Below the pieces are notes generated by a model that saw only the letters and a list, made by a program, of their open reading frames with translations, had not been told where the DNA came from and searched no databases. Positions 1-63,880 of a stretch of 64,000 bases of DNA are shown one piece after another (the stretch's first letter is position 1; each line of letters opens with the position of its first letter). A program made the position numbers and the translations under genes. The stretch is taken from the NCBI RefSeq assembly GCF_000372725.1, contig NW_005202427.1, forward strand, positions 434,001-498,000, given 5' to 3'. The DNA is from Emiliania huxleyi CCMP1516. Lineage: Eukaryota.

Positions 1-212
1 AGAGACCGACGAGAGTGGGACGGCCGCGAGGTGGCATGAAGGTTGCAGCGAGAAGCGGCGAGAGACTGCGAAAAGAGATACGAAGAGGCAGACTCCCCAG
101 GGTGGGCGACGGCTAGCGCACCACACTCCTCTCCTTAAAATCCCTGTGTGGTGGCGGCGTGCCGTTCTCCCATCCCTCGCTTGGGTTGTGTGTTTTCTTT
201 CTTTCTTTCAGC
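1..212 (-). repeat. Dispersed repeat module A (~200 bp); other copies at 18508-18705 (-), 49547-49790 (+), 57556-57630 (+, partial)
   Basis: Core ccaagggagggatgggagaacggcacgccgccaccacacagggattttaa, or close variants or its reverse complement, at all four sites. Confidence 0.85.
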
Positions 213-268
213 ACACAGGCTCGACACAGGTGCGAACTGGCGCGTGCTAGTACTATCACCGGCACACC
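210..268. repeat. Short dispersed repeat; inverted copy at ~48591-48650
   Basis: caggctcgacacaggtgcgaactggcgcgtgctagtactatcaccggcacacc matches the reverse complement at ~48591-48643. Confidence 0.8.
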
Positions 269-12412: not shown

Positions 12413-13830
12413 GCTGCCGCTCGCGCGGCGCCTCGATCTCGAGATCGAGGACGACGAACTCGGCCAGGCAGGAGCGGGTGAGGGCGGACGCGAACTGCTT
12501 CTTCCAAAATGTGAGCGGGAGCAGCTCGGCGGTGCGCATCGTCTTTGGGTCGATGAGGTGGACGATGTTGGACACCTGTGCACCGACCCGCCCCGCTCAT
12601 CGAGGGCTAGCTCACGGACCATCTCGCCATATCTCGCCATATCTCGCCATATCTCCCGAGGGCTAGCTCATAGGCCGCGTTCTCTCCCCACAGGGCCGAG
12701 GGGGTGGCGCGGCGCTGGTCACGCGCACAGCCGTCGGGTGGGCTGACCCTCTACCGCAGGCTCGCCTCGGGGCGGTGCCCATATCTCGCCATATCTCGCC
12801 ATATCTCGCCATATCTCGCCATATCTCCCCAGCCGGGACGCGCCTTGTTGCAAAGCATGAAGCGCGGAACCTGCCCCACCGTCGCCGCCGTGCTCGCCGG
12901 CAGCCAGAGCGCGTCGCCGCGGCAGATTGGCAGCAGCTCCACCGAGTAGGTGAACTTGTACCGCCCCTTCCCCGTGTGCGTGTCGGTCGAGATGAGCTGC
13001 TTGGATGTCTTGTACCGGGTCGGCGCGACGCCCTGCAGGAAGGCGGTCATCTTCTCGGCGTGCGAGCGCGCCTCGTAGAAGAAGTCGAGCCCGTCGCGCC
13101 GCTCGACGATGTTGATCGCGTCCGTGTGCGCGCGGTGCTTGAGGATGAGCTGCTCGATCCAGAAGAACGTCCGCTTGTGCTCCACCTTTTGCCGAACCTA
13201 CCGGCAGAGAGCGGCGCGCATTTGGAGGAGCGAGCGAGCGGAGGGAGGGGGGAGTGCGCCGGTTGGGCGCTGCGACGAGGGGGTGCGGTGCGAGGCGCGG
13301 TGGCCAAGTGCGGCTGGAAGCGCGGACACGGTGCGACTGGCGGCGCTGACAAGAGGCGGGGTTGCCGGCACCTGGCAGACGGCGACCCACGTGTCCTTGG
13401 CCTCTCGCCGCTGGCAGGTGCCGCACTGCTTGTTGCCGAGGACGTACTCCACCACGAAGGACTGCTGCAGCACCGCGCCCGCCACCACCTCCTGCTGCAC
13501 CGTCAGCTTGAGCTTGATGCGACGCGAGTGAGGCTCGGTCCAAACATACGAGGCGTCGATGAGCCGGACCTGCGTCAGCCCGCGCGGCTTCTTGAGCAGC
13601 AGCGCGAGGAGCTCCTTGGACTCCATGTCCACCTCCGCCCAGCTGCCGTCCCGCCGCTCGAACCGGTTGCAGCCGCGGCACGTGTTTTGCTGGACCTGCT
13701 TCGATACTCCTGCGCCGATGTCGTAGCGCTCCTGGAGACAGTTGACGCACATATTGACCGCGTTCGGCTCGATCACGACGGCGCACTGGCAGCAGAGGAT
13801 CTTGTGTGGCTGGTCCAGGATCATGGCCAT
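11546..13830 (-). CDS. NMD3: 60S ribosomal export adaptor NMD3 (multi-exon; introns include 13198-13371 and 12056-12125)
   Basis: ILCCQC..IEPNAVNMCVNC, LIDASYVWTEPHSRRIKLKLTVQ, VRQKVEHKRTFFWIEQLILKH, DLEEDPEMRAQINLYRD. Confidence 0.93.
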
Positions 13831-14140: not shown

Positions 14141-14279
14141 CGCAAGCGGCGTGGAGCGGTTGAGCATCCCTCCGGGGGCCCCTCTGCGCCGGGGAGGCGT
14201 TGTTGGAGGCTAGGACGCAAGCGTCCGTCGCCCTTTTTCAAACTCGGGGCCCACTCCGCTACGCTCCGACCCGAATTTG
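14141..14279 (-). repeat. Dispersed repeat module C (intact); a split copy lies at 55470-55515 plus 57434-57539
   Basis: Reverse complement caaattcgggtcggagcgtagcggagtgggccccgagtttgaaaaa...cctccccggcgcagaggggcccccggagggatgctcaaccgc matches both halves. Confidence 0.85.
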
Positions 14280-18402: not shown

Positions 18403-19176
18403 GGCGGAGGTCCGATAGGTGCGAAGGCTGGCCGCTCTTTGGCGGCTCCGAGGTTGTTGTTGTGCGCGTCCAGCCGCCCTGGCGTGCGAAAATAAGAATT
18501 TAGCCGGCAGAGTGGGACGACCGCGAGGTGGCATGAAGGTTGCAGCGAGAAGCGGCGAGAGACTGCGAAGAGAGAGGAAGAGGCGGACGCCCAAGGGTGG
18601 CGACAGCTAGCGCATCACACCCCTCTCCTTAAAATCCCCGTGTGGTGGCGGCGTGCCGTCCTCCCCATCCCTCCCCTGGGTTGTCCTTTTCTTTCTTTTT
18701 TTAGCAGACAGGCTCTCGCAGCCGCGCTGCACAATGTTCCAGCTCAGGAGGTCCCCCTGTGCTTCTCGCAGCTTTGTGCAGCGCAACGAGCGGGCAGCGC
18801 TGCACGAGGCGGACGCGCGGACCCACGGCGTGCTCAGCGAGCCGCGAGGCGGAGGCAGGCCGAGTGAGCGCGAGCCGCATCGGCGCCCATGTCCCGCGCA
18901 GCGGCGAGCGAGCGGCACGGAGGAGTGCAATGTCGCGCATTGCGAAACGGTTTTCCAGCGGTCCTTATTCCATGTCCGAACTTGGAGCACTTGGAGTGCA
19001 GTCATCAACCTCACATCCAGGGCCGGGGAGCTAAGAAGCGCGTGCGCGCAAATTCTCTTTGCCGTGATTTTAGTGCTACCCGGGTACAGCCCGGGCCAGC
19101 GCGCCAGAGACCCGTGCCCAGTGTCGTGCGAGGGAGCGTGCGCGGGGTGTGTCTGTGTGTGTGACGCGACAAGGGG

Positions 19177-23591: not shown

Positions 23592-26500
23592 ATGACCTCG
23601 CGGACTCGACAGCAGGACATAGCCCCGAGCGTCTCCGAGGCCCTGCGCCTCATGAAGCAGGCAGTGCAGTCGTCGCTGGACCTCGGAGACATTAACCCGC
23701 AATCGGCAAAGCGGAAGCACGTGTCTCCGCGCCACTTGCCACGCACGACAGCGCACAGCCTCAACCCTTGTATAGGTTTGCAAGGCGGTTGGGATGACCA
23801 AGCCGCAGCTATCTTCGTGGCTCACGACGACGTGTGCGGTCCCAACGTCCAACTTCCCACTTACCTCGCCCCGCTGACGCTGAAACGGTCCCGTCGTCAC
23901 GCGGTCGCAGGTCGCCGTCCCCCCACTGGGACGCAAAGGTTGCCGAGTGGCTCAAGCAGGCCCAGGCCCGCGCGCTGAGCGCAAACGGCGCGCTGCTCCC
24001 CTCACCCCATACCCTCCACCTCGCGCCGGTAACGTCGCCCTAACCGCCTCCGCCCCGGCCCGACGTAGCTCCGGCCCGCCCCTCCTGCCGGCACAGGCGC
24101 GCAGCACCGCGGCGCGTCTTCCAGCGTAAGCTCCAAGGGGTCGGGCAAGGCGGCCAAGGCCAGCCAACCGGCCAAGGCCAGCCCGAGCGGCGGCGCGAGC
24201 GCAAAGGCGGCGACGAGCAGAGAGAGCACGCCCGGCGGCAAGGGCGTGCAAGCCGGCGGCAAGGCGAGCACGGAGCAGAGCGTGAGGAGGCTGAAGCAGG
24301 ACTTGCTCGAGCTCGAGACGTACATCCCCTGGACCGCCGTCTCCTCCGCGTGGCAGTCCAAGCGCGCCGCGTGGGAGCGCAAGACGTGCGAGGCGGAGAG
24401 AGAGGGCGACGCGACACGTCCACGGCGCGTCTTCACGGCGGCGTCGCACCTCGCTCACGGTATAGGTGCGCGGCGGGGGACGCCGGGTGCGTGGTGCAGC
24501 AGCTGCTCGCGCTCGAGCGCTTCCTACTGCCGTGCGCCTTCGAGGCGCGCTGGAGCGCGGGCAATGAGTGGCGCGCGAGGCTGCTCCGCCAGAACAGCGC
24601 GGCCGACGTGAAGCAGTCGCTGCGCGCGCCGGAGGACGCGATGGGAGCCTTCCAGGAGCCTTCCAGGAGCCTTCCAGGAACCCTCTAGGCGCGAGCTGGA
24701 GGACGCGATGCACTGGGCGCGCTTCGGCGCGCACAGCACGCTCGTGGAGCGGCGCCGCGGCGCTGCGTGTGCGGAGGGCGCAAAAGAAAAACACGTGGCC
24801 CCACGCTGTCCCCCGCCTGCCGTGTAGGTATGAGCAGCTGCTCACGTCGCGGGCGGGCGAGCAGCTCGAGCGGCTCGGGGCGAGGAGGCTGGCGCAGGTT
24901 CGGAGCACGATCGACTCGTTCGGGTGACGCGGCGGAGCCTCGCGCACCCGACACGTCCCTGGACGCGCCCACGAGACGCGTCCACGACACGTCCGTAGGT
25001 ACGCAGGCCTAGCCGACATGGCTCAGGATTGCATCGCCATCGCGGGCGGCGCCGAGGGCGCAGGCGCCGAGCTGCGCGAGCTGCGCGAGAGCATCTGCGC
25101 CGCGCTGGGCGTGCCGCTCACGGACGCGCTGCTGCGGCTGCCGGCCAAGTGCGCGCGCTCGACCCTTCTAGGAACCTTCTACGAACCTTCTACGAACCTT
25201 CTAGGCTGCCGGCCAAGGGCGCGCGTTCGACCGACGCCAGCGACGACCTCTCCAGCACCACCAGCGCGCTCGCCGCCGCGCCCGACGACGCCGACGGCGG
25301 CGGCGGCGGCGAGGCGGGAGGCGAGCTGGCCGCGGCCGCCGAGCCGGGCGGCGGCGGCGGCGGCGGGTTGTTCTCGGAGGAGGTGCGGCTCGCGGGCGCC
25401 AAGCGCGAGCGGGTGGTGTCCAAGGAGCAGCGCTTCGAGGAGTTCAAACGGCGACAGCGGCTCCACCCCGAGATCACGGGCGCGCGCACCGGCCGCTTCC
25501 CTCTTGGGGCGCCTCGGCACTTTCTCGGCACCCGTTCGGCACCTTCCTGCAGGCGTGTACGCCGACCGGTTCCTCGAGCGCGCGCCCGATATGCGCCACT
25601 TCCAGGAGCTGTCCCAACCCAGCGGGGGTGCGCCGGCCTTCTCGGAAGCGTCTTTGAGGCGTCCCGGAGGCGGGGCCTGTAGGAGCTGATCGTCTTTCGC
25701 GAGGCTGCGAGCGCGGACGGGGTGGCGGGGGTGCTGCTCCTCTCCCCCGGCACGACCCTCTTTCAGCTGCGCCGCCAGCTCGCCTCCGAGCTCGGCCTCG
25801 AGGGCCGCAACACCACCCTCTCACGCCTCGCGGGCTCCCCAAACCCCGTCGCCCCGAGCCACCCCCTCGGAGCCCGTCCCGTAGGCGGCGACGACCTCCC
25901 CATATCTCCCCATATCTCCCCATATCTCCCCATGTCCCGTAGGCGGCGACGACCTCGAGCTGCGCCGTGTCGTGTGGGAGGGGGAGCACGCGCCGGCCGC
26001 GGACGCGGCCGGGGGCATCCCACTGCCCGCCGCGCAGAACCACAAGCGCGACGCCCGCCTCCTCTCCCCCGGCATCGGACGCGTCCTCGACACGTCCCGT
26101 GCCGAGCCTGTCTGGTAGGCTGGCCTACCCCTTCTTCCCGCTCGCCAGCCAGGTCCTCGTCGTGCGCAGCCCGGCCGCGCCGGCCGCTCCGCTCCCCTTC
26201 CTCCCCGGCGACACCGCCCTCTGCGCCGACATCTCGCGCGGCCGCGAGGCGCAGCCAATTGCCCTCTTCAACAGCGCGGACGACGAGCCCGCGCCCGTCT
26301 TCACGTGCGTGACGCAGTGCTGTCTAGCTGTCTAGGAAGTGTCTACGAAGTGTCTACGAAGTGTCTAGGTACGTGACGCAGTGCGTGGTGAGCGAGTCGC
26401 TCCGGCTGTTGGTGGGCGGGCCACAGCTCGGCGCCTGGCTCTGCCCGAGGCTGAGGGGAGGCGGCGGCGGCGGCGGTTGCGGCGGCGGCGGCGGCGGCGG

Positions 26501-27353
26501 CGAGCCAAACTACGACCAGCACGGCCGGCTACGCTTCGCGCCGCACACCGTCGAGTCGATTTGGGAGTGCTGCCTCGAGAGCATGTGCCGTCCGGGCTGC
26601 GACAACCGGCTGGTGCAGTACGGGCCGCGCTTCCGGCTCGAGGCGTTCCGCTGTGTCGCTTGGCCCCGCGTGGAGGCCGCCTCTGCTCACTGTCTGCTGC
26701 GAGTCAGGTGTTCCGCTGCCCGCCCGTCGGCCGCATCTCCAAGGGGTGGGGCATCCGCAGCCCCGAGCTGATCCCGCGCGGCTCCTTCGTCTGCGAGTAC
26801 GTCGGCGAGTACATCTCCGACGACGAGGCGGAGAGCCGAGGCATCCGGTACGATAACCAAAAGATGAGTCGGCTGATGGACGTGTACGGAAACGGCAGGG
26901 ATGCGGTCCACATGTGCATCGACGCACGACATGGACGAGGTATGAACGGCGTCTCTTCACACCTGCTGCTGTGAACAGGTCCACATGTGCATCGACGCGA
27001 CCAAGTTCTCGAACGTCGGCGCGCGGCCCACCCCTCGCCTGGCTACGCCGCCCACGCCCGCCCGCGCTTCCCCTCGCCACCACCGCTGTCCCGACCGCCG
27101 GACAGCCACACTCGCAGCTCCCGGCCTCCCCCCTTGCCCAGGCCGCTTCCTCAACCACTCATGCGAGCCGAACGTCTTCAAGCAGCGCGTGTTTTGCGAC
27201 CACCACGTGCGGCTGCCCAGGATAGCCTTCTTCGCCCTCGTGGACATCCCGCCTCGCGTGGAGCTCTGCTACGACTACGGGTATGTGGACGTGCCGGGCA
27301 AGACCATGCCATGTCTCTGCGGCGCAAAGAGCTGCAAAAAGCTGCTGTATTGA
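23592..27353 (+). CDS. Pre-SET/SET/post-SET histone lysine methyltransferase (SUV39/G9a-like), many introns; 5' exons tentative
   Basis: DISRGREAQPI, WECC..CRPGCDNRLVQYG, KGWGIRS..IPRGSFVCEYVGEYI, NVGRFLNHSCEPN, ELCYDYG, CLCGAKSCKKLLY. Confidence 0.85.
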
Positions 27354-32261: not shown

Positions 32262-34665
32262 ATGTCCACCCAGGAGGACGCCGTCCTCCAGGAGCTTATC
32301 CAGCGCGCCTTGGCCTACCCGGACGGCGGCATCTCCGCCGAGGCCGAGGCGGAAGCGGCTGCAGAGGCGGCCGAGCTGGCGGCCGAGGCGGAGGCGGAGG
32401 CGGTGCTCTCAGACTCGCGCCGCTGGCCGGCGGGCCTGAGGAGGCTGCTCGACGGCCCTCCTCCGGCAGGCGGTGATGCGGCCTACCCGTCTCACGCACC
32501 CGACTCGGCCACCGGCCTGCTCTGCGGCGTCGCGCCCATGCTGCTGCACCGCTCGGCCGGCGCAGAGGTCTGGCAGCGCGGCGATTTGTACGATGAGCAC
32601 GTCGAGCGGCCCGCCCGGATAGTGGCCGTCTACGACGCGCTGCTGCGCGAGGGCCTCGTCGGCCGCGCCAAGCTCATTCCCGCGCGGCCAGCGGCGCGCT
32701 CGGACCTCGAGCTCGTCCACTCGCGCTCTCATTCGAGGAGGGCGGTGCGGCGGTACGAGGGGGAGGAGGAGGCGCACGAGGCGCTGGGGCTGCAGCTGGG
32801 CGCCGACACCTACTTCGCGGCGGGCGAGTCGGGCCGCGCGGCGCTGCTGAGCTGCGGCTCCGTCGTCGAGCTCGCGACTCGCCGTCTCGTTCAGGAAGTG
32901 TCTAGGAAGTGTCTAGGAAGTGTCTAGGCTCGGTCGTCGAGCTCGCGACTCGCGTGGTGACGGGAGAGCTGTCCAACGCGCTGGCGGTGGTGCGGCCGCC
33001 GGGCCACCACTGCGAGGCACGGCAGGCGATGGGCTTCTGCCTCCTCAACAACATCGCCGTGGCGGCGGCGGTCGCGCGCGCGCGGCTCGGCGTGCAGCGC
33101 GTGCTGGTCGTTGACTGGGACGTCCACCACGGCAGTGCACTAGACACTTCCTAGACACCTCCTAGACACCTCCTAGACACTTCCTATTGACTGGGACGTC
33201 CACCACGGCAGTGCACTAGACACTTCCTAGACACCTCCTAGACACCTCCTAGACACCTCCTATTGACTGGGACGTCCACCACGGCAGTGCACTAGACACT
33301 TCCTAGACACCTCCTAGACACCTCCTAGACACCTCCTATTGACTGGGACGTCCACCACGGCAGTGCACTAGACACTTCCTAGACACCTCCTAGACACCTC
33401 CTAGACACCTCCTATTGACTGGGACGTCCACCACGGCAGTGTGTGGCGGCAGCGGGCGGCAGCGGCGAGTGGCTCCTCGCAGCTGGGTCGGAGGTGTGGC
33501 TGTAGGCAACGGCATCCAGCACATCTTTGAAGAGGACGGCTCGGTGCTGTACGCCTCGCTGCACCGGTACGGACACGGCTTTTACCCAGGCACCGGCGGC
33601 GCGCACGCCGTCGGCGAGGGCGCCGGCAGGGGCTTCAGCCTCAACATCCCGTGGAGCTCGGCCGGGTACGGCGACGCGGAGTACGCGGCCGCCTTCGAGC
33701 GGTTGCTGATGCCGGTGGCGCGCGAGTTCGCGCCGGATCTCGTCCTCGTCGCCGCCGGCTTCGACGCGGCGGCGCGCGACCCGCTCGGCGGCATGGAGGC
33801 GTCTGAAACCCCCCCCGCGCCTCTCGGCTGCCTCTCGTTCGTTGCGAGAGGTTGTGCGGCTTTGCCGAGCACCGCACTGCACTGCTCCCCCGCACTGCTC
33901 CCCCGCAGGTCTCCCCCGCCGGCTACGCGTACATGACGGCGCAGCTGCGCTCCCTCGCCGCCGGCCGGCTGGTGGTCGCTCTCGAGGGGGGGTCCGCCGG
34001 CCCATCCCCTGCCGCCTCCTCCACCCCTCCCTCCACCCCTCCACCCCTCCACCCCTCCACCCCTCCACCCCTCCACCCCTCCACCCCTCCACCCCTCCAC
34101 CCCTCCCCCCCTCCCTCCCTTCCACCCCTCCCTCCCTTCCACCCCACCCCCTTCCCTCCCTCCCTCCCTCCCTCCCTCCCTCCCTTCCACCCCACCCCCT
34201 TCCCTCCCTCCCTCCCTCCCTCCCTCCCTCCCTCCCTCCCTCCCTCCCTCCCTCCGGGCCCGTGCAACCGGTCACCACCGACGCAGGTACAACCTGCGCT
34301 CCATCTCCTCCTCCGCGGCGGCGGTGATGCGCGTGCTGCTCGGCGACGACCCTCCGCCGCTGCCTCCGGCGCCGCCGTGCCGCTCGGCGGCTCGAGACAT
34401 CCTCGAGGCGAGCCACGCGATGGCGCCCTTCTGGCGGAGCGTCGCGGCGGCTCTTGGCGGGCCGCAGGCGCAGCCGCGCTCCGCTGTCGCGCGGCCGCGG
34501 CTCTCGAGGGCCGCCTTGCGCGAGCTCTACGGGACACGCGCTTACCCTCGCCGCCGCCGTCGCTCGCGCTGGCCGTTCAAGTGGAGGGCGACGACGCCCT
34601 CTGCGTGGCGGGGGGCGGCACGTCGGCGGCCCGCCTGGCACCGCTTCATGTACGGCGATGAATGA
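32262..34665 (+). CDS. Class II histone deacetylase (HDA1/HDAC6-like); introns 32857-32927, 33132-33505, 33799-33908, 33992-34286
   Basis: HVERPARI, RPPGHHCE..AMGFCLLNNIAV, VDWDVHHG|NG, FAPDLVLVAAGFDAA.RDPLG, ALEGG|YNL after splicing. Confidence 0.92.
33111..33441. repeat. 76-bp tandem repeat (4 units plus a partial): exon end, splice donor and ctagacacytc satellite
   Basis: ttgactgggacgtccaccacggcagtg at 33111, 33187, 33263, 33339, 33415. Confidence 0.95.
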
Positions 34666-47431: not shown

Positions 47432-48928
47432 GTCGAGTCTCTCGTCGGCTCGGTCGCGTCGTGTCGAGATAGACTTGGCATACGCACCGTTCGTGGGAAG
47501 GGCATCACCTTGGCAGGACACTAGCTTGTGCGCGCGAATGGCCGGAGTGGTGCATAGAGCTGCCCAGCCGCGCCCGACAGATCTCTAGCGGACTAGCGCA
47601 CCACCAGCAGCAGACCAGTGACCACCACCCGCCCAGCCTTGTGCGCAATGATGCAACCACTACCAGCCCCCCCAGTGCTACTACGTCAGTACTAACTACG
47701 TCATGATTGAAGACTCACATATACACTCTCTTGTACTATCGTTTTAAACTGAACACTTCCCTGGACGGTCGGACGCGGCCTGTGGCTGTGCGTGTGGCTG
47801 TGCGCTGCCACGGGACGCCACGTGCGGGACGCGCAGGTCCAGGACCAGGTTGTTGTGGGCTTGTCCGTTGTCGTGGGTGGGCACTGACCCGTAAGACCTG
47901 CTCCACGGTTGCGGGACGAGCCTGCCTCTCGAGTGCGTGCAGTGTCGTCGCAGATGCGCCAACCATGGTCATCCAAGGTCCTTTAAGTCGACTGTTGATG
48001 CTGCCCTGCGCGTCTCGCTTGGCGGAATCCAGCGACCGATGAGCATCAACCACGCGGTCGGTCACAAGGGCACGCAGCGCCTCATCATCCTCAAACCAAG
48101 TCTCGCTATTAAAGGGGTGCGGCTGATTCCCTTCAGTGCCATTTGTCGCTTGCGATGTAGCCGCCGGTTCCCCTTTTTGTTCCCTTCGATGCCTCTCCCT
48201 CTGCAAGCCTGGCCGTGGTTCGCGTTCAGGGCACGCTTCCAGCCCTAGCTTGGCCGCAGTGCGCAGGCTGCGATTGGAGGCGAGGCCAAAGTCGGGCAAC
48301 GGCTGCCCGCTAGACATGCACAGCGCTGACCTCAGGCGCGGAATCGGACCACTCCAGACTACCTCCTCCCTCACCACTCTCTGCTGCGAAGCGCTGTTGC
48401 ATCGGCTGGCCCGAAAGCGGCTGCGATCCGTCTCCCGCTTAAGGCCAGCGCTGTATGACTTGTATCGTCGCCCGCCCAGTGGCCGGTTCGGGAGCCGTGC
48501 GAACGCGGATAGAGGCTCGAGCGGGTCGCCGCTGGAGGGGACTTGCAGAGCCATTCCGATCGTTACGACACCGAAAATTCTTTTCTAGTCGGTGTGCCGG
48601 TGATAGTACTAGCACGCGCCAGTTCGCACCTGTGTCGAGCCTGTCTGCTGTGAGAGAGAGTTCTTTTGTTTAAATTCTTTTCTAGTGTGAAAGGGGAGGG
48701 CTGCACCGCTGAGCCTGCCAGGGCCTTGTTACGCGGGGCCAGACGGCCAGTCGAGGCGCCACCGCCACCGACAGCCAGCCGACCCGCGCCCAGAGGAAAC
48801 CGCGCCAGTCCAGCCCTTCCTTGTCGTGCCAGTGTGTGCTGCGAGAGAGGCTTGTGTTTAACATTCTTTTTGCGCGGTTCCGATCTTGACGTGGAGCCGA
48901 GGTGAGTGAAATTGGGAGAGCTCACACA

Positions 48929-49082: not shown

Positions 49083-49940
49083 GCCTTCCAGCGGCGAGAA
49101 TTTAAAAGATCGGCACCAAAACGCCGTGGGAGGTCTCACGGCGTACCCTCCTACGCGGGCGTGCGGGCGGGCTCGCCGGGCTGGGCGAAGCTCCGAGCGG
49201 GTCTTCGAGCTCGCAGCCCGCGACGAGCCAGCATGGCTCGTCGCTCGACGGCAGCCTGCCCAGTACCCTCTCGGCATTCTGTACAGCCTCGCCGAGCTGT
49301 CTGGGAAGGCCTACAGAGACAGGGCGGGCTGCGCGCCCCTCCACGTACCACGAAGCACGATCGTGGCCCTCTTTGCCTCTATAGCGGCCGCTCTAACCAC
49401 TTCGAACGCTTCCACGGCTGTCGGTGTTGGGTTCAGTCTGAGAGATGGTTGGATGGAGCACTTGGAGCACTTGTATCCGTGTGGCAAGAACCTCACCTCC
49501 CGGGCCGGGAGCTATGAAGCGCACCCTGCGGGCAGGAAGGCCGGGAAAAAGAAAAGAAAGAAGCGACAACCCAAGGGAGGGATGGGAGGACGGCACGCCG
49601 CCGCCACACACAGGGATTTTAAGAAGAGGAGTGTGGTGCGCTATCCGTCGCCCACCCTTGGCGCTTGGGCGTCTGCAGCCTTCTTCCTATCTCTCTTCGC
49701 AGTCCCTCGCCGATTCTCGCTGCAACCTTCATGCCAGCTCGCGGTCTTCCCACTCTCGTCGTTCTCTCCCTTGTCGCTTCTTCCTCTGTCGCGCCGCCGC
49801 CGTCCAGTTTTTCTTCTTTCTGGCGGCGAATCATCGCCACGCCGCAATGAGAGCGATACGACGAGAGTGCGCGCTTGGGCTACGCCGTGCGACCCCCTCC
49901 CCGTTTTAGGCCGGTCTTCAATTTTCTTCTTTCTGGCGGC

Positions 49941-52749: not shown

Positions 52750-55376
52750 TCACCAGTCGTAGGAGGATGAGTCGGAGGTGCGTCGGCCGGCAGAGCGAAG
52801 CGCCTCGAGCTCCTCCTCCGTCTCGACCGGCGTGAGGTTGAGCAGCTTGAGCCGCCTCTCCTGGTAGTACTCGAGCCCGTCGAGCGACCCGAGGGCGGCG
52901 CGCAGCTCGTTCGCCGCCGCAGAGACCGCGCGCCGCTCGGCGTACCGCACCGCAGCGCAGCGGTAGCCGACCGACTCGCGCGGCGCCTCGGCGAGGGACG
53001 CCAGGTCGAGTTGGACGTCGCCGCGCAGCTTGCCGAGCGCACTCGTGACCGCGTCGTGCCCGAGCTGCAGCGCCGCCGCCTCGTTTTGCCTGGAGACGGG
53101 CTGCTGCAGGTGCTCGCGCCAGAGGTCGTCTGCGAAGAGGGCCTGTGGGGAGACATGGGGAGATATGGGGAGATGTGGGGCCTCTCGCGCCAGGGGTCAA
53201 GAGGGCCTGCGGGGGCGGGGGGCGGGCGCTGTGGTGGTGCCGTGGACATGTCGTGGACATGTCGTGGGCATGTCGTGGGCATGTCGTGGGCATGTCGTGG
53301 ACATGTCGTCGACATGTCGTGGGCATGTCGTGGGCGTGTCGTGGACATGCCGTGGACATGCCGTGGACATGTCGTGGGCATGTCGTGGGCATGTCGTGGA
53401 CATGCCGTGGACATGCCGTGGACATGTCGTGGGCATGTCGTGGGCATGTCGTGGACATGCCGTGGACATGCCGTGGACATGCCGTGGACATGCCGTGGAC
53501 ATGTCGTGGGCATGTCGTGGGCGTGTCGTGGGCGTGTCGTGGACATGTCGTGGCCATGTCGTGGCCATGTCGTGGGCATGTCGTGGGCATGTCGTGGACA
53601 TGCCTAACTGCAGGGGCGGTGTCGGCGCCTCGAGCAAGAATGCGTCCGAAGGCGTGGAGGGCGGGCCGAGGTGGACGAGGCGTAGGTAGGCGAGCAGGTC
53701 GGGCGGCAGCGGGTCCGCCTCGGACACGACGAAGCCCTGCTCCACCGCGCTCAGCCCGACCCGCTCGAGCACATCCACCTTGGCAAGAGGGGCCAGAGGG
53801 TTAGGGCTAGGGGTTAGGGTTAGGGCTAGGGCTGGGGGTTAGGGCTAGGGCTTGGGAGCCGGGGCTGGGGGTTAGGGCGGCCCGCTCGAGGACAGTGCCG
53901 TGCTGACGTGTCGGATGTGGCATGTCGTGCCACTAAGAGCACCCGCGCGCGCCTTCTCGTCGTAGTTTGGGTCGTCGTCGGCGACGCCAAAGCGCAGGCT
54001 CGCCTCTGGCGGCACCGGCTCGGCGACGAAGCCGTAGTCAAGGAGCAACTCGCCGCGCGTCGCCTCGGCGTAGCAGAGGGTGAGCGCATCCCCAGCCGAC
54101 AGGTCCGCCTGCGCAGTCAGCTCGACCGCGCCTCCCTCGCCTCCACGCCCAAACAGGCCAGCCTGCGGGACGACGCGGGACCCAGGCGTGAGTGCCCCGT
54201 CTGTGCGGCGTCCCGTGCCCCCGCCCCCCCGAATTCATCTGGACTCTGCCTGCGGGCCGCGCGCTTGAAGGCTGGCGCTCGGCGAGTCGGCATGGTTGCC
54301 TAGTCCCATACCTCCAGAGTACCGAATCCAGTGCGTGGGCTCGGCTCCAGCCTCGGCGAGGCGGAATGGTTGCAGAGCTCGACCAGCGGCAGCAGCGCCG
54401 GCCTCGCCGGCTCGCCCTGCCGCCCGCCCGCCGGCACGAAGACGCAGCGCGAGAAGGCGAGCCTGGAGGTGTCGGGGAGGTGTCCAGGAAGTGTGTCCTG
54501 GAACGGTCTACGACGCAGCGCGAGAGAGCGCCCGAGTGCGCGCAGGAAGGACGCCTCGCTGAAGACCGACTCGGGGAAGACCATCGGGGAGGCCTCGAAG
54601 ACGTTCTCGCGCAGCCTGGCCGCACACGCGGGCGGGCGGGGTGGGTAGGCGACAGGCGTGCCGCGCCCTTCCGCCCTCCGCCCTCTCCTACCCCCCACTC
54701 CCACTGCTCCGCACCACTCGTAGTCGGCCCCATATCTCCCCATATCTCCCCATATCTCCCCATATCTCCCCATATCTCCCCATATCTCCCCATATCTCCC
54801 CATATCTCCCCATATCTCCCCATATCTCCCCATATCTCCCCATATCTCCCCATATCCGCACCACTCGTAGTCGGCCTGCGCCGCGAGCCGCCGCTCCACA
54901 CACGGCGCCGCGGTGGACTGCTCGAGCTCGGCCTGGTCGTCCGAGGGCCAGAGCAGCGGCAGGTCGTGCTGCTCCACCTGCCAGCACGCCGACGAGAGCC
55001 ACGGCGCGAGGCTGGACTGCTCACCGAGCCGCTCCTCGTTGAGCAGTGCGACGGCGATGAAGGAGTAGTCTGCGAGGTAAGGCTCGAACTCGACGAGGTA
55101 GGCGCCGAGGAGCTCAGAACGCAGGGCAGACTCGGCGGTGATGGCCAGCTCCTCCGGCACGCTGAGCAGCCGATCGCCCCGCCGCACCGCCCGAGCCGCA
55201 ACGAGGCCGACGCCAAGCTGGGCCGCGTCGGCGGCCTGGACGACGGACACGTCGCCGCCCTGCGACGCGACCCACTCTGCGAGCGGCGGCACCGCGGCCA
55301 CCCGGGTCGCGGTCGCGGGACAGCTGGTGAGCGCGGCGTAGGCGGCGGAAGCGAGGAGCAGGAAAATCCCCAACAT
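52750..55376 (-). CDS. Rubisco-LSMT-like SET-domain protein lysine methyltransferase with signal peptide, many introns
   Basis: GVGLVAARAVRRGDRLLSVP, ALLPLVELC|NHAD, LTLCYAEATRGELLLDYGFV, LLAYLRL, PVSRQNEAAAL, LEYYQERRLK. Confidence 0.8.
53241..53602. repeat. Intronic 11-bp satellite (ggacatgtcgt)n
   Basis: About 33 tandem units. Confidence 0.95.
53797..53876. repeat. Intronic telomere-like (TTAGGG/CTAGGG)n tract
   Basis: agggttagggctaggggttagggttagggctaggg. Confidence 0.85.
54729..54857. repeat. Intronic 10-bp satellite (ccatatctcc)n; related arrays at 12619-12657, 12778-12828, 25897-25933, 62358-62392
   Basis: About 13 tandem units. Confidence 0.95.
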
Positions 55377-57367: not shown

Positions 57368-57697
57368 GGTCACTCCTCATCGCAAACCCTGTCAGCAGTC
57401 CTCCTCCGGGAATGTACGTAAGAGCCACATACATTGAAAAAGGTGTGCTTGCCCTTGCGTCATATCCTCCCACAACGCCTCCCCGGCGCAGAGGGGCCCC
57501 CGGAGGGATGCTCAACCGCCCCACGCCACGCCGCTTGCGTCGGTCCAATTCCACGCTAAAAAAGAAAGAAAACAGACACCCCAAGGGAGGGATGGGAGAA
57601 CGGCACGCCGCCACCACACAGGGATTTTAATTCCACGCTCGCGGGGGCCAGTTCTTATTCCCTATTTTTTTCACGCACAATGCGCGCCGCCTGAGCA

Positions 57698-59609: not shown

Positions 59610-62600
59610 ATGGCGGGCGGCGACATCCACGCCGCGGCGCTCCAGGGCGACATCGCCGCGGTCCGCGAGCTGATCGACAAACGGGACGACCGGATGGAGG
59701 CGGGCGGCTACACTCCGCTCGGGCTCGCGGTCTCTGCCGGGCACGTGGAGATCGTGCGGCTGCTGCTGCGCGAGACGGTGACCGTCGATGCGGCTGACGA
59801 CGAGGGCGTCACTGCGCTGATGCACGCGGCGATGCACGGGTACGGCGCGCTCGTCGATCTCCTGCTCCTGCACGGCGCGTCGCCGCTCAAGACCCGGAAC
59901 GACGGCGAGAGCGCGCACACGCTCGCTGCGCTGTATGGCCGTCCCGCCGCGCTGGGAGCCTTCTTCCGCGCGAACGGCGCGCTCGTCGAGACTCCGAACG
60001 CGCTCGGGCGCACGCCGCTGCACAACGCCGTCACTCTCCGCCACCTGATCACCATCAAGTACCTGATCGGCGCGGACCACCCTACCTCCAGAGTATCGAA
60101 TCCAGTGTGGGTTCAGTCCCGTGGGTGGTGCGGTATTAGGCGCGTGGCGGGCCGACCCCACCGTCGAGGACAGAGAAGGCAACTCTCCGCTGCACCTCTG
60201 CCGAGGGCCCGTCGAGGCGCTCGTCCTGCTGCTGCACGGAAGCGCCTCCCGCCCCTCCCTCGCCGCATCCAACCTGGCCGGCCGCACCCCACCCGAGGAG
60301 GCTGCGGCGGCGGTGCGCGCTCCACCGCACCACCCACGGAGAGCCAAACCCTCACTGGGTTCGACACTCGGGAGGTATGGTACTAGGGCGCGTCGAGCGG
60401 GGTGGTGGCGGCGATGCGGGAGGCGAGCAAGGGGGAGGGGTCGGGCGCCTGGCTCAACAGCCAGAACGTCGACACACGCCTCCTCTCCTTCCTCGCCGGC
60501 TCCCCGCTCCGCACGCCTCCGAAGCAGCTGCCCGACGGCCCCTGGTTCGGGCAGGTCCGGCCCGCGCTCGTCGTGCAGAGCCTCGTGCCCTACTGCTGGG
60601 GCCTTACCCTCGCCTACTCGCTGCCAGCGGGCGCCGCCCTCCTCGTCGGCGCGCCCCCCTACCCTACCTCCAGAGTGGTCGAATCCGGTGTGGGTTCAGC
60701 TCCGTGGGTGGTGCGGTAGGCGCGCCCCTCCTCGCGGGCTGGTGGAGCCGACTCGTGCGGAACGACCGCTGCCGCGCCGGGGCAGAAGGGCTGCTGCAGG
60801 GCTGCCCCGAGCTGCGCCACTTGCTCGGCCTCTCCGACTCCTCCTCCTCGCCGAACGGGGGGAGGCTCGACCTGTGCGCGCTCTACCGCACCACCCACGG
60901 AGCTGAACCCTCGCCGGGTTCGAGACTTTGGGAGGTATGGGACTAGGCGCGCCCCCCTCGGCCTCGTCCTTGCCATCCTCTTCCTGATGGCGACGCAGGC
61001 GCTCCTCGTGACCCCGCTGCTGCTGCCGCAGAGGCCGCTGCTCTCCCTCGCATCCTATGCCGCACAGGCCCTCCTCGTCTACAACTACGTCCACGCCGTC
61101 TCGACGCCGCCCGCGATGCTGCCCGGCGCCAAGCCGGACTACCCTACCTCCAGAGTCTCGAATCCAGTGTGGGTTCAGTCCCGTGGGTGGTGCGGGACTA
61201 GGCGCCGATGCGGAGTCCGCCGCCGCGTACTGGTCTGCCCTCGAGGTGCCTCTCCCCTACCCCCCACGGTACCTGAACCCACCCTCCCCTACCTCACGGT
61301 ACCCAAACCCACCCTCCCCTACCTCGGTATCCGAACCCACCCTCCCCTACCTCACGGTACCCGAACCCACGCCTCGTACTGGCCTCTCCCCTCGAGGTTA
61401 ATTCGCGGCTAATTGACTGCGAATCAGCTGCTAGTTCACTGTGTGCTACCTCACTTCTCTCGTTCGAGGCTAATTGGCCGCTAACTCGCTGCGAATCAGC
61501 TGCTAATCCAAGTGCTGGTTCTCTCTCTGCCCTCTCCAGGCCCTCCCCCCGAACGCGGGCTTCCCCACCGACTTTTGCGAGCGGTCCGAGCGGAGGAAGG
61601 TCGCGCGCGCGCGCTACTCCCCGATGTGCGCAGGGATGGTGCACGTGATGGACCATGACTGCGTCTGGAAATAAGAATACATAATAATCATAGGTGCGGC
61701 GGGATGGTGCACGTGATGGACCATGACTGTGACCAGCGTCTCTTCACACCTCTAGCTGTAAACAGGTGCGGCGGGATGGTGCACGTGATGGACCATGACT
61801 GCGTCTGGATCGGGACGGTCGTCTGCGAGTCGAACCACCCCGCTTTCGTCGGCTTCCTCCTCGCCGCGGTGGCCGCAATCTGCCTCCACCTCGCCTGCCT
61901 CGCTACGGTGCAGCCGCGCGTGGTGAGGCTGTTGCGCAATACTCGTACTGATAGGAAGTCAGAATCCGAGCAGGTGCAGCCGGACGTGATTCTGTTGTTG
62001 CGCAGCTTGCTCTCGGGGACGCCAGCCACGTTCGAGGCGAGGAGAGGGAGGAGGAGGAGAGGGGAGGAGGAGGAGAGGAGGGAGGAGGAGGAGAGGGAGG
62101 GAGGGGGAGAGGGAGGGAGGAGGAGAGGGAGGAGGGGGAGAGGGAGGAGGAGAGGGGTCGCGAGAAGAGGAGGGAGGAGGGGGAGAGGGAGGAGGAGGAG
62201 AGGGGTCGAGAAGAGAAGGGAGGACAGCCATCCTCATCCCAGCCCCCCCCCCCCTTCCCCCCCCCTCGAGGCGCGCGTGCTCTGCCTCTCTGCCGTCCTC
62301 TCCTCCCTCCTCCTCCTTGGGGTGCTGCCGCTTCTCATCTTCCACCTCTGGGGCGAGAGATATAGCCGAGATATAGCCGAGATATAGCCGAGAGATCGCA
62401 CCTCTGGGGCGAACCCTTCAAGAGAGAGAGAGAGAGAGAGAGTTAGCCATACCAAACAACTTTAACACTCACACGCGTCATTTGGGGCCTGGAGCCCTGT
62501 TCACGCGCGAGAGAGACGTGCAGCCCATGCAGGGTTCCCAGGTGAGAGCGAATGGCGCGGTTCACCCCTCGCACAACAGATAGCCTTCAGCGTGACGGCG

Positions 62601-63210
62601 AGGGAGTCGATGCCCCAGGAACCCTTTGGGAGCCTTCCTGGAATGTTCCTGTAGGCGCCCCCTTCAACGTCACGACGATGGAGTCGATGCGCTTCAAGTG
62701 AGACACCCCCCCCCCCCCCCCTTCCCCCCCCCTCGAGGCGCGCGTGCTCTGCCTCTCTGCCGTCCTCTCCTCCCTCCTCCTCCTCGGGGTGCTGCCGCTT
62801 CTCATCTTCCACCTCTGGGGCGCGCCCTTCAAGAGAGAGAGAGCTTCTCATAGCTTCTCATAGCTTCTCATCTTCCACCAGAGAGAGAGCTTCTCATAGC
62901 TTCTCATAGCTTCTCATCTTCCACCTCTGGGGCGCACCCTTCAAGAGAGAGAGAGAGAGAGTGGTAGCCATACCAAACAACTCGAACACTCACACGTCAT
63001 TTGGGGCCTGGAGCCCTGTTCACGCGCGCGCGAGACGTGTAGACAGGGTTGCCAGGTGAGAGCGAATGGCGCGGTTCACGCCTCGCACAACAGATAGCTT
63101 CAGCGTGACGGCGAGGGAGTCGATGCGCCAGGAGCCTTCTTGGAGCCTTCCTGGAATGTTCCTGTAGGCGCCGCCTTCAACGTCACGACGATGGAGTCGA
63201 TGCGCTTCAA
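59610..63210 (+). CDS. Ankyrin-repeat plus DHHC-family palmitoyltransferase (Akr1/ZDHHC13/17-like), DHDC variant; 3' end duplicated or incomplete near the gap
   Basis: Ankyrin repeats, TM segments, FCERSERRKVARARYSPM|CGGMVHVMDHDCVWIGTVVCESNHPAFVGFL, NVTTME (TTxE). Confidence 0.85.
60078..61201. mobile_element. Five copies of a ~60-bp introner-like element, each in its own intron (60078-60139 +, 60322-60386 -, 60659-60719 +, 60883-60946 -, 61139-61201 +); sixth copy at 54300-54348
   Basis: Consensus ctaccctacctccagagt..gaatccagtgtgggttcag..ccgtgggtggtgcgg..tag in both orientations. Confidence 0.85.
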
Positions 63211-63880
63211 GTGAGACCCCCCCCCCCCCTCCCACTGCATGTGCGTGTGCGTGTGCGTGTGCGTGTGCGTGTGCGTGTGCATGTGCATGTGCATGTGCAT
63301 GTGCGTGTGCGTGTCTCTCAGCTCTCTCTCGGCTCTCTCAGCTCTCTCTCGGCTCTCTCGGCGCCTTAAGCGACGCAAACCACTCCCACACCCCGCCCCG
63401 TCCCACTCCCTCACCCCCTGACTCAGTCAATGCCTTAGCGCAAGAGCACTTTGTGCGTAGCTCCGCGAGCAACTGTAGAGCACTGTCGGCCACCGACTGT
63501 GATGAGTGGGTGAGCCTGTGAGTGAGCCCCCATAGCACAGAGTGGTGTAGGCCATTCTCGGTCGAGTAAGAACTGATGTGGAAGCGAGCAGCCTGCTGCT
63601 ACGAGCTGCCTCATTCAACNNNNNNNNNNNNNNNNNNNNNNNNNNNNNNNNNNNNNNNNNNNNNNNNNNNNNNNNNNNNNNNNNNNNNNNNNNNNNNNNN
63701 NNNNNNNNNNNNNNNNNNNGGGGGGGGGGGGGGGGCATGAGTGACTCGCAACCCACAGACGCCAGAGCGCGCTCGCTCCGCTCTCCGCGCCCGGCCGTCT
63801 CGCTCCACCCTCAGCGCGAATTATATTTATTGAGAGTGGCCCCTTATGCTTATGCCAAGCCCAAGGGTAGGGTACTGTAA

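What the first reader, a model, noticed from the sequence alone, without database searches (positions are those of the whole stretch)
60070..61201. Orientation-independent ~60-bp introner-like element filling five consecutive introns
Seen: DHHC introns 60070-60139, 60313-60386, 60649-60719, 60874-60946 and 61126-61201 each carry the same element, alternating +,-,+,-,+. Its ends are short inverted motifs (CTA..CC / GG..TAG), so it ends in TAG and supplies the acceptor either way round. The donor comes from 5-13 nt resembling the next exon start. A sixth, donor-side-truncated copy occupies LSMT intron 54300-54373. Inference: a mobile, intron-generating element with local hopping.
Basis: partly seen in the sequence, partly recalled or inferred. 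Interest (0 to 1): 0.88.

Follow-up and report, generated by a model that had tools for sequence, protein, structure and literature searches.

The report
Reversible intron-maker with long exon duplications
A 60-base repeat fills five neighbouring introns of a coccolithophore gene in alternating directions and recurs at dozens of other sites, often between variable-length copies of the gene's own sequence, which suggests it likely makes new introns by being copied in during DNA break repair rather than as a classic transposon.

Summary
Real. The five introns (70, 74, 71, 73, 76 nt) carry one ~60-nt element, +,-,+,-,+. All five are skipped in two RNA-like runs and kept in a DNA-like run. The host is Emiliania huxleyi. 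A metagenome scan gave 74 distinct sites, in both orientations to the gene (18 and 28 of 46 called), strongly clustered (14 of 53 loci hold two or more), with near neighbours mostly inverted (13 of 16 under 600 bp). It does not look like a MITE: flanking duplications run from a few to 36 nt with no fixed length, ends are ragged, and two pairs of unrelated genes share the whole intron including its donor segment. Unrelated fillers in this genome show the same 'exon duplication + filler, about 70 nt' design, three as presence/absence alleles. Best reading: host break repair copies an existing intron, often a nearby one, into a staggered break; selection keeps spliceable products. E. huxleyi Introners and either-orientation introners are already published, but unclassified here. 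No empty allele or autonomous partner of this element was seen, and no genome was available.

The parts
59610..61246 (+). Exons 1-6 of an ankyrin-repeat DHHC palmitoyltransferase gene (the gene continues beyond 61246)
   Evidence: Open spliced frame; P0001 with PF01529 and ankyrin domains; mapping
60070..60139 (+). Intron 1, 70 nt, GC-AG; element forward (core 60076-60135); 6-nt boundary repeat
60313..60386 (+). Intron 2, 74 nt, GT-AG; element reversed (60324-60386); first 12 nt nearly identical to those of intron 4
60649..60719 (+). Intron 3, 71 nt, GC-AG; element forward (60659-60719); 10-nt perfect boundary repeat
60874..60946 (+). Intron 4, 73 nt, GT-AG; element reversed (60883-60946); forms a long inverted repeat with intron 3
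61126..61201 (+). Intron 5, 76 nt, GC-AG; element forward (61138-61197); core differs from intron 1 at one position; 11 of 14 nt repeat of the next exon
54300..54373 (-). LSMT intron, 74 nt, GC-AG; donor-side-truncated element (54300-54348)
   Evidence: skip in X6 only, X3 and X4 contigs enter it; P0137 and P0138 match the spliced form
54278..54299 (-). Exonic copy of the 22-nt duplication whose intronic copy (54352-54373) supplies the LSMT donor
61692..61801 (+). Comparator in the same gene: 38-nt perfect exon duplication, period 72, around a second ~39-nt repeat family (61727-61765) ending in an acceptor
   Evidence: splicing not directly shown
61633..61729 (+). Comparator: 29-nt perfect exon duplication, period 68, around an AT-rich filler ending in TAG
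   Evidence: splicing not directly shown

Best explanation
A non-coding ~60-nt sequence that can end an intron in either direction sits in at least 74 Emiliania huxleyi sites and likely spreads by being copied into staggered DNA breaks by host repair rather than by a transposase. Inferred steps: (1) offset nicks in an exon are filled in, duplicating a few to about 36 nt; (2) the gap is patched by copying an existing element-bearing intron, often one within a few hundred bases and then usually inverted, sometimes whole, sometimes cut short on the donor side; whether the template is DNA or the nascent RNA is open; (3) the upstream copy of the duplication supplies a GC or GT donor, and the element end (TAG or CTAG) or the downstream copy supplies the AG; (4) selection keeps only products of about 64 nt or more that splice out without changing the protein. 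Shown: splicing, orientation, duplications, clustering, protein neutrality. The element is one successful filler among several that use the same route.
For: Anchored duplications at 33 of 74 sites against 2.4% of 2164 flank-swap controls, 8-36 nt. Perfect runs of 8-33 nt at 23 of 74 against 12 of 1434 controls, with no single length; L045 keeps a perfect 19-nt copy that has decayed in its allele L002. A second, 39-nt family has longer duplications (15 of 21 sites, median 28 vs 17 nt, p=5e-4) and periods of 64-77 nt, so duplication length complements filler length. Three presence/absence alleles with other fillers show insertion = duplication + filler: +71 nt with a perfect 22-nt repeat, +70 with at least 18, +93 with about 30. 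Whole-intron copies in unrelated genes: L012/L049 share 87 nt including a 28-nt donor segment that repeats the next exon only in L049; L008/L030 share 79 nt. 14 of 53 loci hold two or more copies against 0.3-1.5% expected if 200-1000 copies were spread evenly. Same-locus pairs share rare variants in 14 of 31 cases vs 236 of 2670 (permutation p=0.008; 0.015 without this gene). Neighbours under 600 bp are opposite in 13 of 16, those beyond in 0 of 5. Orthologues called as single ORFs on 7-13 kb contigs read through all five positions without indels.
Against: The core has sharp, conserved limits with imperfect inverted ends at 69 full-length sites, which random patching would not predict. 41 of 74 sites have no duplication above the score threshold. 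Mean core distance within loci (8.9) is not lower than between loci (7.9) (that run held one spurious locus merge, and second copies were found by a looser search). The 600-bp cut was chosen after seeing the data; without this gene 9 of 12 opposite is not significant alone (p=0.15). Truncations are one-sided (4 of 16 vs 0 of 74), which also suits reverse transcription. No empty allele of this element was found (10 locus pairs; these loci were found through the element). The copy number used for the clustering expectation is assumed. No enzyme was identified.
Confidence: 0.5

Rival explanations
1. SINE-like retroposition: a LINE or Penelope reverse transcriptase would copy the intron RNA at nicks (target-primed), giving variable duplications and one-sided truncation.
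For: Variable duplication length; truncation only at the end that is 5' in the commoner orientation; shared stretches in L012/L049 and L008/L030 stop at about the presumed splice sites; non-LTR introners are reported (PMC12130899 section 6).
Against: No poly(A) or repeat tail; no A-box then B-box order, no Rfam hit, and one implausible 18-nt ARAGORN call at a lowered threshold among 74 cores; tight local clustering with inverted neighbours is not typical of LINE-driven insertion (recalled); AT-rich and tandem-repeat fillers have the same design.
Confidence: 0.2
2. Secondary colonisation: the introns arose first by duplication plus some other filler, and this sequence later replaced their interiors by ectopic gene conversion between nearby introns.
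For: Allelic copies differ by family-type variants (intron 3 in L026 vs window; L003 vs L052); the core appears flipped between constant outer ends in introns 1 and 5; conversion would explain shared rare variants.
Against: Perfect long duplications abut the element directly (L045, L013, L033, L044); no allele pair with a different filler at the same site in 19 site pairs; allelic divergence of cores (4.5%) is not above flanks (6.0%, inflated by indels).
Confidence: 0.14
3. Non-autonomous DNA transposon (MITE-type introner) with local hopping, whose target duplication was later blurred.
For: Imperfect inverted ends, both orientations, local hopping; a 66-nt E. huxleyi introner family with GT/GC donors has a RepBase hit to Novosib-1_EmiHux (identity with this family not testable).
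Against: No fixed duplication length even among perfect repeats; 45 different left-end heptamers; copies carry sequence from outside the inverted ends; no longer element with the same end among 58 pattern hits.
Confidence: 0.13
4. Reverse splicing of the intron into RNA or R-loop DNA.
For: Whole-intron copies exist; the model predicts local clustering (PMC4540971 passages).
Against: That model gives sense-only, duplication-free insertions; here both orientations and long duplications occur.
Confidence: 0.03

Closest known systems
Unclassified E. huxleyi CCMP1516 Introner families (Gozashti 2022 Suppl. Table 6; Gozashti 2025 Dataset)
   Same: Same species. 2022 family 1 is 70 nt, GT/GC 50:50, 63% GC, 19 copies; family 3 is 70 nt, 158 copies; 2025 fam11 is about 66 nt with gt:3, gc:3. 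The six introns here are 70-76 nt, 60-68% GC, 4 GC and 2 GT donors. This family may well be one of them.
   Different: Those rows give TSD/TIR as '?' or 'Unknown'; two 15-nt motifs of this element were absent from the two supplement files searched (one cut when stored), so identity is untested. Orientation, long duplications and clustering are not described in the parts read.
Polarella glacialis ILE classes 6, 8, 10 and Aureococcus introners (bioRxiv 2020.10.14.339549)
   Same: Create introns in either orientation, with a bias to one; one splice site carried, one recruited from the duplication.
   Different: Fixed 8-nt duplication there; here a few to 36 nt, ragged ends and copying beyond the inverted ends.
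Daphnia pulex new introns from staggered double-strand breaks (PMC4202315)
   Same: A direct repeat of the adjacent exon at the far end of the new intron, read as staggered-break repair.
   Different: Repeats of 4-12 bp and mostly unique inserts of unknown source there; here up to 36-38 nt and recurrent fillers in many copies.
Micromonas and fungal introner-like elements without TSD/TIR (PMC4540971, PMC10996645)
   Same: Short non-coding repeated introns, whole-intron copies.
   Different: Described as sense-only and clean; this one inserts both ways with duplications.

Membership tests
Introner (broad definition, Gozashti 2022) | Many similar introns in unrelated genes | tested here: met
   74 sites in 53 loci, mean 4.8 differences from the majority core in 54 nt
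Introner (broad definition, Gozashti 2022) | Similarity reaches close to both splice boundaries (within 10 intronic nt) | tested here: inconclusive
   Met at the acceptor; on the donor side the core starts about 6-25 nt inside the six confirmed introns
Introner (broad definition, Gozashti 2022) | Spliced out without changing the protein | tested here: met
   Five joints in X4 and X1; no indel against orthologues; LSMT copy only in 1 of 3 runs
Introner (broad definition, Gozashti 2022) | Intron gain: position empty in relatives or alleles | tested here: inconclusive
   Empty in distant orthologues, 36-61% identity, inferred from ORF read-through; no empty allele in 10 locus pairs
MITE-type (TIR DNA transposon) introner | Fixed 3-9 bp target duplication | tested here: not met
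   Perfect repeats 8-33 nt, no single length
MITE-type (TIR DNA transposon) introner | Terminal inverted repeats with exact ends | tested here: inconclusive
   Inner pairs conserved, outer 3 variable, one constant mismatch, ragged ends
MITE-type (TIR DNA transposon) introner | Autonomous partner with the same ends | not testable with these tools
   No genome held; none among 58 pattern hits; 0 in viral contigs
SINE / non-LTR-driven introner | Variable-length duplication and 5' truncation | tested here: met
   (truncation n=4)
SINE / non-LTR-driven introner | Pol III boxes or tRNA/7SL/5S origin; A-rich or repeat tail | tested here: not met
   Box-like motifs in the wrong order, no Rfam or credible tRNA hit, no tail; box patterns recalled
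Helitron | 3' CTAG with subterminal hairpin, 5' TC, no duplication | tested here: not met
   CTAG end present at 33 of 74, but duplications common and no constant TC start; definition partly recalled
Reverse-splicing introner-like element | Sense-only insertion without duplication | tested here: not met
   18 forward and 28 reverse of 46 called

The most novel reading that the evidence does not exclude
E. huxleyi has a host-run 'duplicate-and-fill' intron factory: staggered breaks in exons are patched with any spliceable filler, and a few short sequences, this reversible one among them, have become self-propagating templates that hop locally and inverted with no transposase or RT partner. Its introner families and its tandem-repeat introns would then be one still-active process, linking the break-repair and introner models of intron gain.
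Probability: 0.38. Interest if true: 0.86.

Novelty: new variant of a known kind. Interest (0 to 1): 0.63.

Why it matters
How new spliceosomal introns arise is a long-standing question, and about 72% of catalogued introners have no assigned mechanism. Here a culturable alga with many sequenced strains shows long duplications, recurrent fillers and presence/absence alleles. This makes the break-repair model directly testable by comparing strains. It would also explain why such families stay 'unknown' in transposon-based classification, and it warns that GC donors inside exon duplications mislead gene prediction.

Tried and rejected
No own genome, so no genome-wide count. Summed contig depth over the element in X11 is about 200 times the exon depth; the tool says this is no copy number, so it was not used as one. 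Viral contigs: 0 hits. Prokaryote genomes: 2 hits, plus L054, all right-half only at 3-20 bits in high-GC bacteria-like DNA; treated as chance and dropped. Rfam: nothing at threshold. Folding of single introns was not better than dinucleotide shuffles (z -1.2 to +0.5); mononucleotide shuffles gave about -2 on both strands, a weaker control. The inner hairpin keeps common variants as G-U on one strand but shows no compensatory changes, so it is not claimed as functional. Codon-model donor prediction was wrong for 3 of 6 known introns, so predicted donors and lengths were not used; only strand calls were. One search had a misplaced LSMT boundary, corrected. One search merged L004 and L060 through shared tandem repeats; corrected from then on (73 to 74 sites). 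No run is on record as RNA; X1, X3, X4 and X6 are taken as RNA because they skip GY-AG introns. The 31-nt tandem unit in intron 6 resembles the element's left half only weakly (shuffle p=0.037). Huff 2016 and Read 2013 were not held. Searches for a paper on this family found none.

Full report
Observation. The five stretches at 60070-60139, 60313-60386, 60649-60719, 60874-60946 and 61126-61201 share one core at 82-94% identity in the order +,-,+,-,+. Removing them gives an open frame from ATG 59610, while the unspliced frame stops inside intron 2. The product matches a transcript-derived ankyrin + DHHC protein. Contigs of runs X4 and X1, from two studies, skip exactly these five lengths; X11 reads through; X9 did not cover the gene. 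The letters that fit on either side of each joint number 6, 2, 10, 1 and 6. The sixth copy, in the LSMT gene on the minus strand, lacks the donor-side 16 of 64 model positions and lies between two 22-nt repeats. Its skip was seen in X6 only; X3 and X4 contigs run into it.

Host. LSMT exon 1 is identical to a protein labelled Emiliania huxleyi CCMP1516. No genome was held. One metagenome scan with the right half of the element gave 62 loci; L054 was dropped as chance. L026 is this same gene at 97-99% identity with all five copies. A profile found 93 copies, which reduce to 74 distinct sites in 53 loci including the window's six. That the other loci come from the same species complex is inferred from base composition and shared repeats.

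Orientation. A codon model trained on the two window genes (cross-checked at 31 of 34 and 35 of 40 windows) called the gene strand at 46 of 74 sites: 18 with the element forward, 28 reversed. An independent check agrees: the right-end TAG is followed by G at 12 of 14 forward sites and 1 of 12 reverse sites (p=2e-4). An AG lies within 14 nt of the core on the gene strand at 17 of 18 and 27 of 28 sites. In reverse sites 15 use the element's CTAG end and 12 use other tails, so the element is not always the source of the acceptor.

Duplications. 33 of 74 sites carry a duplication anchored at both ends, 8-36 nt long, against 2.4% of 2164 controls. Perfect runs of 8-33 nt occur at 23 of 74 sites, with no single length. 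The other 41 sites have short or decayed repeats. L045 keeps a perfect 19-nt copy of the next exon, while its allele L002 has changed several positions, so the repeats likely start perfect and decay on the intron side.

The design is not special to this element. The window holds about a dozen further 14-38 nt duplications about 56-77 nt apart around tandem-repeat, AT-rich or other fillers (read by eye from the 79 rows, most of which are protein-domain repeats; shuffled controls gave 0-1). A second, 39-nt family occurs at 21 sites, 15 with duplications of median 28 nt and periods of 64-77 nt. The shorter filler has the longer duplication, as expected if a broad range is made and a minimum intron length is selected. 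Three of 10 locus pairs differ by such an insertion: +71 nt with a perfect 22-nt repeat (L052 vs L003), +70 (L020 vs L048) and +93 (L045 vs L002). None of these three involves the element itself.

Source of copies. Two pairs of unrelated loci share more than the core. L012 and L049 share 87 nt, including a 28-nt donor segment that repeats the next exon in L049 only. L008 and L030 share 79 nt. Introns 2 and 4 share their first 12 nt nearly exactly. A transposase working from inverted ends would not carry such flanks (established knowledge). 14 of 53 loci hold two to five copies, against 0.3-1.5% expected for an assumed 200-1000 copies. Same-locus pairs share rare variants more often (14 of 31 vs 236 of 2670; p=0.008, 0.015 without this gene), yet their mean distance is not smaller (8.9 vs 7.9). 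Neighbours under 600 bp are opposite in 13 of 16 cases and those beyond in 0 of 5 (Fisher p=0.003, 0.009 without this gene; cut chosen after seeing the data; rank test p=0.012). Truncation is one-sided: 4 of 16 loosely found copies lack the right end, none of 74 lacks the left.

Gain, not loss. Orthologues called as single ORFs on contigs of 7-13 kb (P0002, P0006, P0017, P0023) align across all five positions without an intron-sized insertion, and P0002 and P0006 run into intron-like text later, which marks them as genomic. These are distant relatives (36-61% identity), so the age of the gains is open.

Mechanism. Shown: splicing, both orientations, variable duplications, clustering, whole-intron copies, protein neutrality. 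Inferred: staggered nicks, fill-in, a patch copied from an existing and often nearby intron, then selection for a spliceable, frame-neutral product (0.5). Rivals are LINE-driven retroposition of intron RNA (0.2), conversion into older introns (0.14), a MITE (0.13) and reverse splicing (0.03). The sharp limits of the core and the one-sided truncation are the main points the best reading does not explain.

Known work. Gozashti 2022 (PMC9860276; passages, section 7, supplement rows) lists five E. huxleyi Introner families, two of 70 nt, with TSD/TIR unresolved. Gozashti 2025 (PMC12130899; passages, section 6, supplement rows; files 13-14 not searched) lists three, two of them unclassified, one noted for 10-bp terminal direct repeats, which fits the second family here. 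This family may already be counted there; the files searched held no matching motif. Either-orientation introners with fixed 8-nt duplications are described in Polarella and Aureococcus (bioRxiv 2020.10.14.339549; part 1 of 4 and passages). Staggered-break introns with 4-12 bp repeats are described in Daphnia (PMC4202315; passages). PMC4540971, PMC10996645 and PMC11282704 were seen as passages; PMC5730883 and PMC8355091 only as search listings. Huff 2016 and Read 2013 were not held and are recalled only. Four searches found no paper on this family's anatomy; most subscription papers are not searched.

Verdict. It works like an introner and meets the broad definition in most tested respects, but fails the fixed-duplication test for a MITE and the origin tests for a SINE. 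New variant of a known kind; interest 0.63.

Noticed in passing
window 61727-61765 and 26943-26978; L008, L013, L018, L020, L024, L033, L035, L040, L042, L044, L045, L047, L050, L057, L061: Second repeated intron filler of about 39 nt with 10-nt direct repeats at its ends and 14-36 nt exon duplications; probably the published 37-nt or '10bp terminal direct repeats' family.
   Followed up: partly
window 61633-61801: The exon stretch coding the DHHC-type motif (here DHDC) is present three times, separated by two different fillers: two successive duplicate-and-fill events at one site.
   Followed up: partly
window 12601-12670, 24622-24710, 25136-25232, 25876-25956, 32856-32953, 54441-54525, 54708-54876: 10-11 nt tandem-repeat fillers bracketed by 14-29 nt exon duplications; 54463-54531 and 54616-54861 are skipped in X3, X4 and X6.
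   Followed up: partly
L052 vs L003; L020 vs L048; L045 vs L002: Presence/absence alleles of 70-93 nt duplication-plus-filler insertions in otherwise matching contigs.
   Followed up: partly
window 53779-54861: Four of the five RNA-supported LSMT introns use GC donors.
   Followed up: yes
window 61252-61370; L027, L033, L047, L053: 31-nt tandem unit in intron 6, found in other loci too, weakly like the element's left half.
   Followed up: partly
window 60682-60920: Introns 3 and 4 can pair as a stem of about 45 bp around exon 4 in the pre-mRNA; no exon skipping appeared in the contigs, which drop rare forms.
   Followed up: no
window 62240-63230: The last DHHC exons appear twice in tandem; a duplication or an assembly of two alleles.
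   Followed up: no
P0002 residues near its C-terminus: A relative's orthologue reads into an intron bracketed by a repeated motif at the same DHHC-motif site, hinting that duplicate-and-fill introns occur in other haptophytes.
   Followed up: no
window 1-268, 14148-14241, 18509-18708, 48591-48659, 49682-49767, 57434-57630: Dispersed intergenic repeats of 67-94 nt in both orientations, also in L027 and L040.
   Followed up: no
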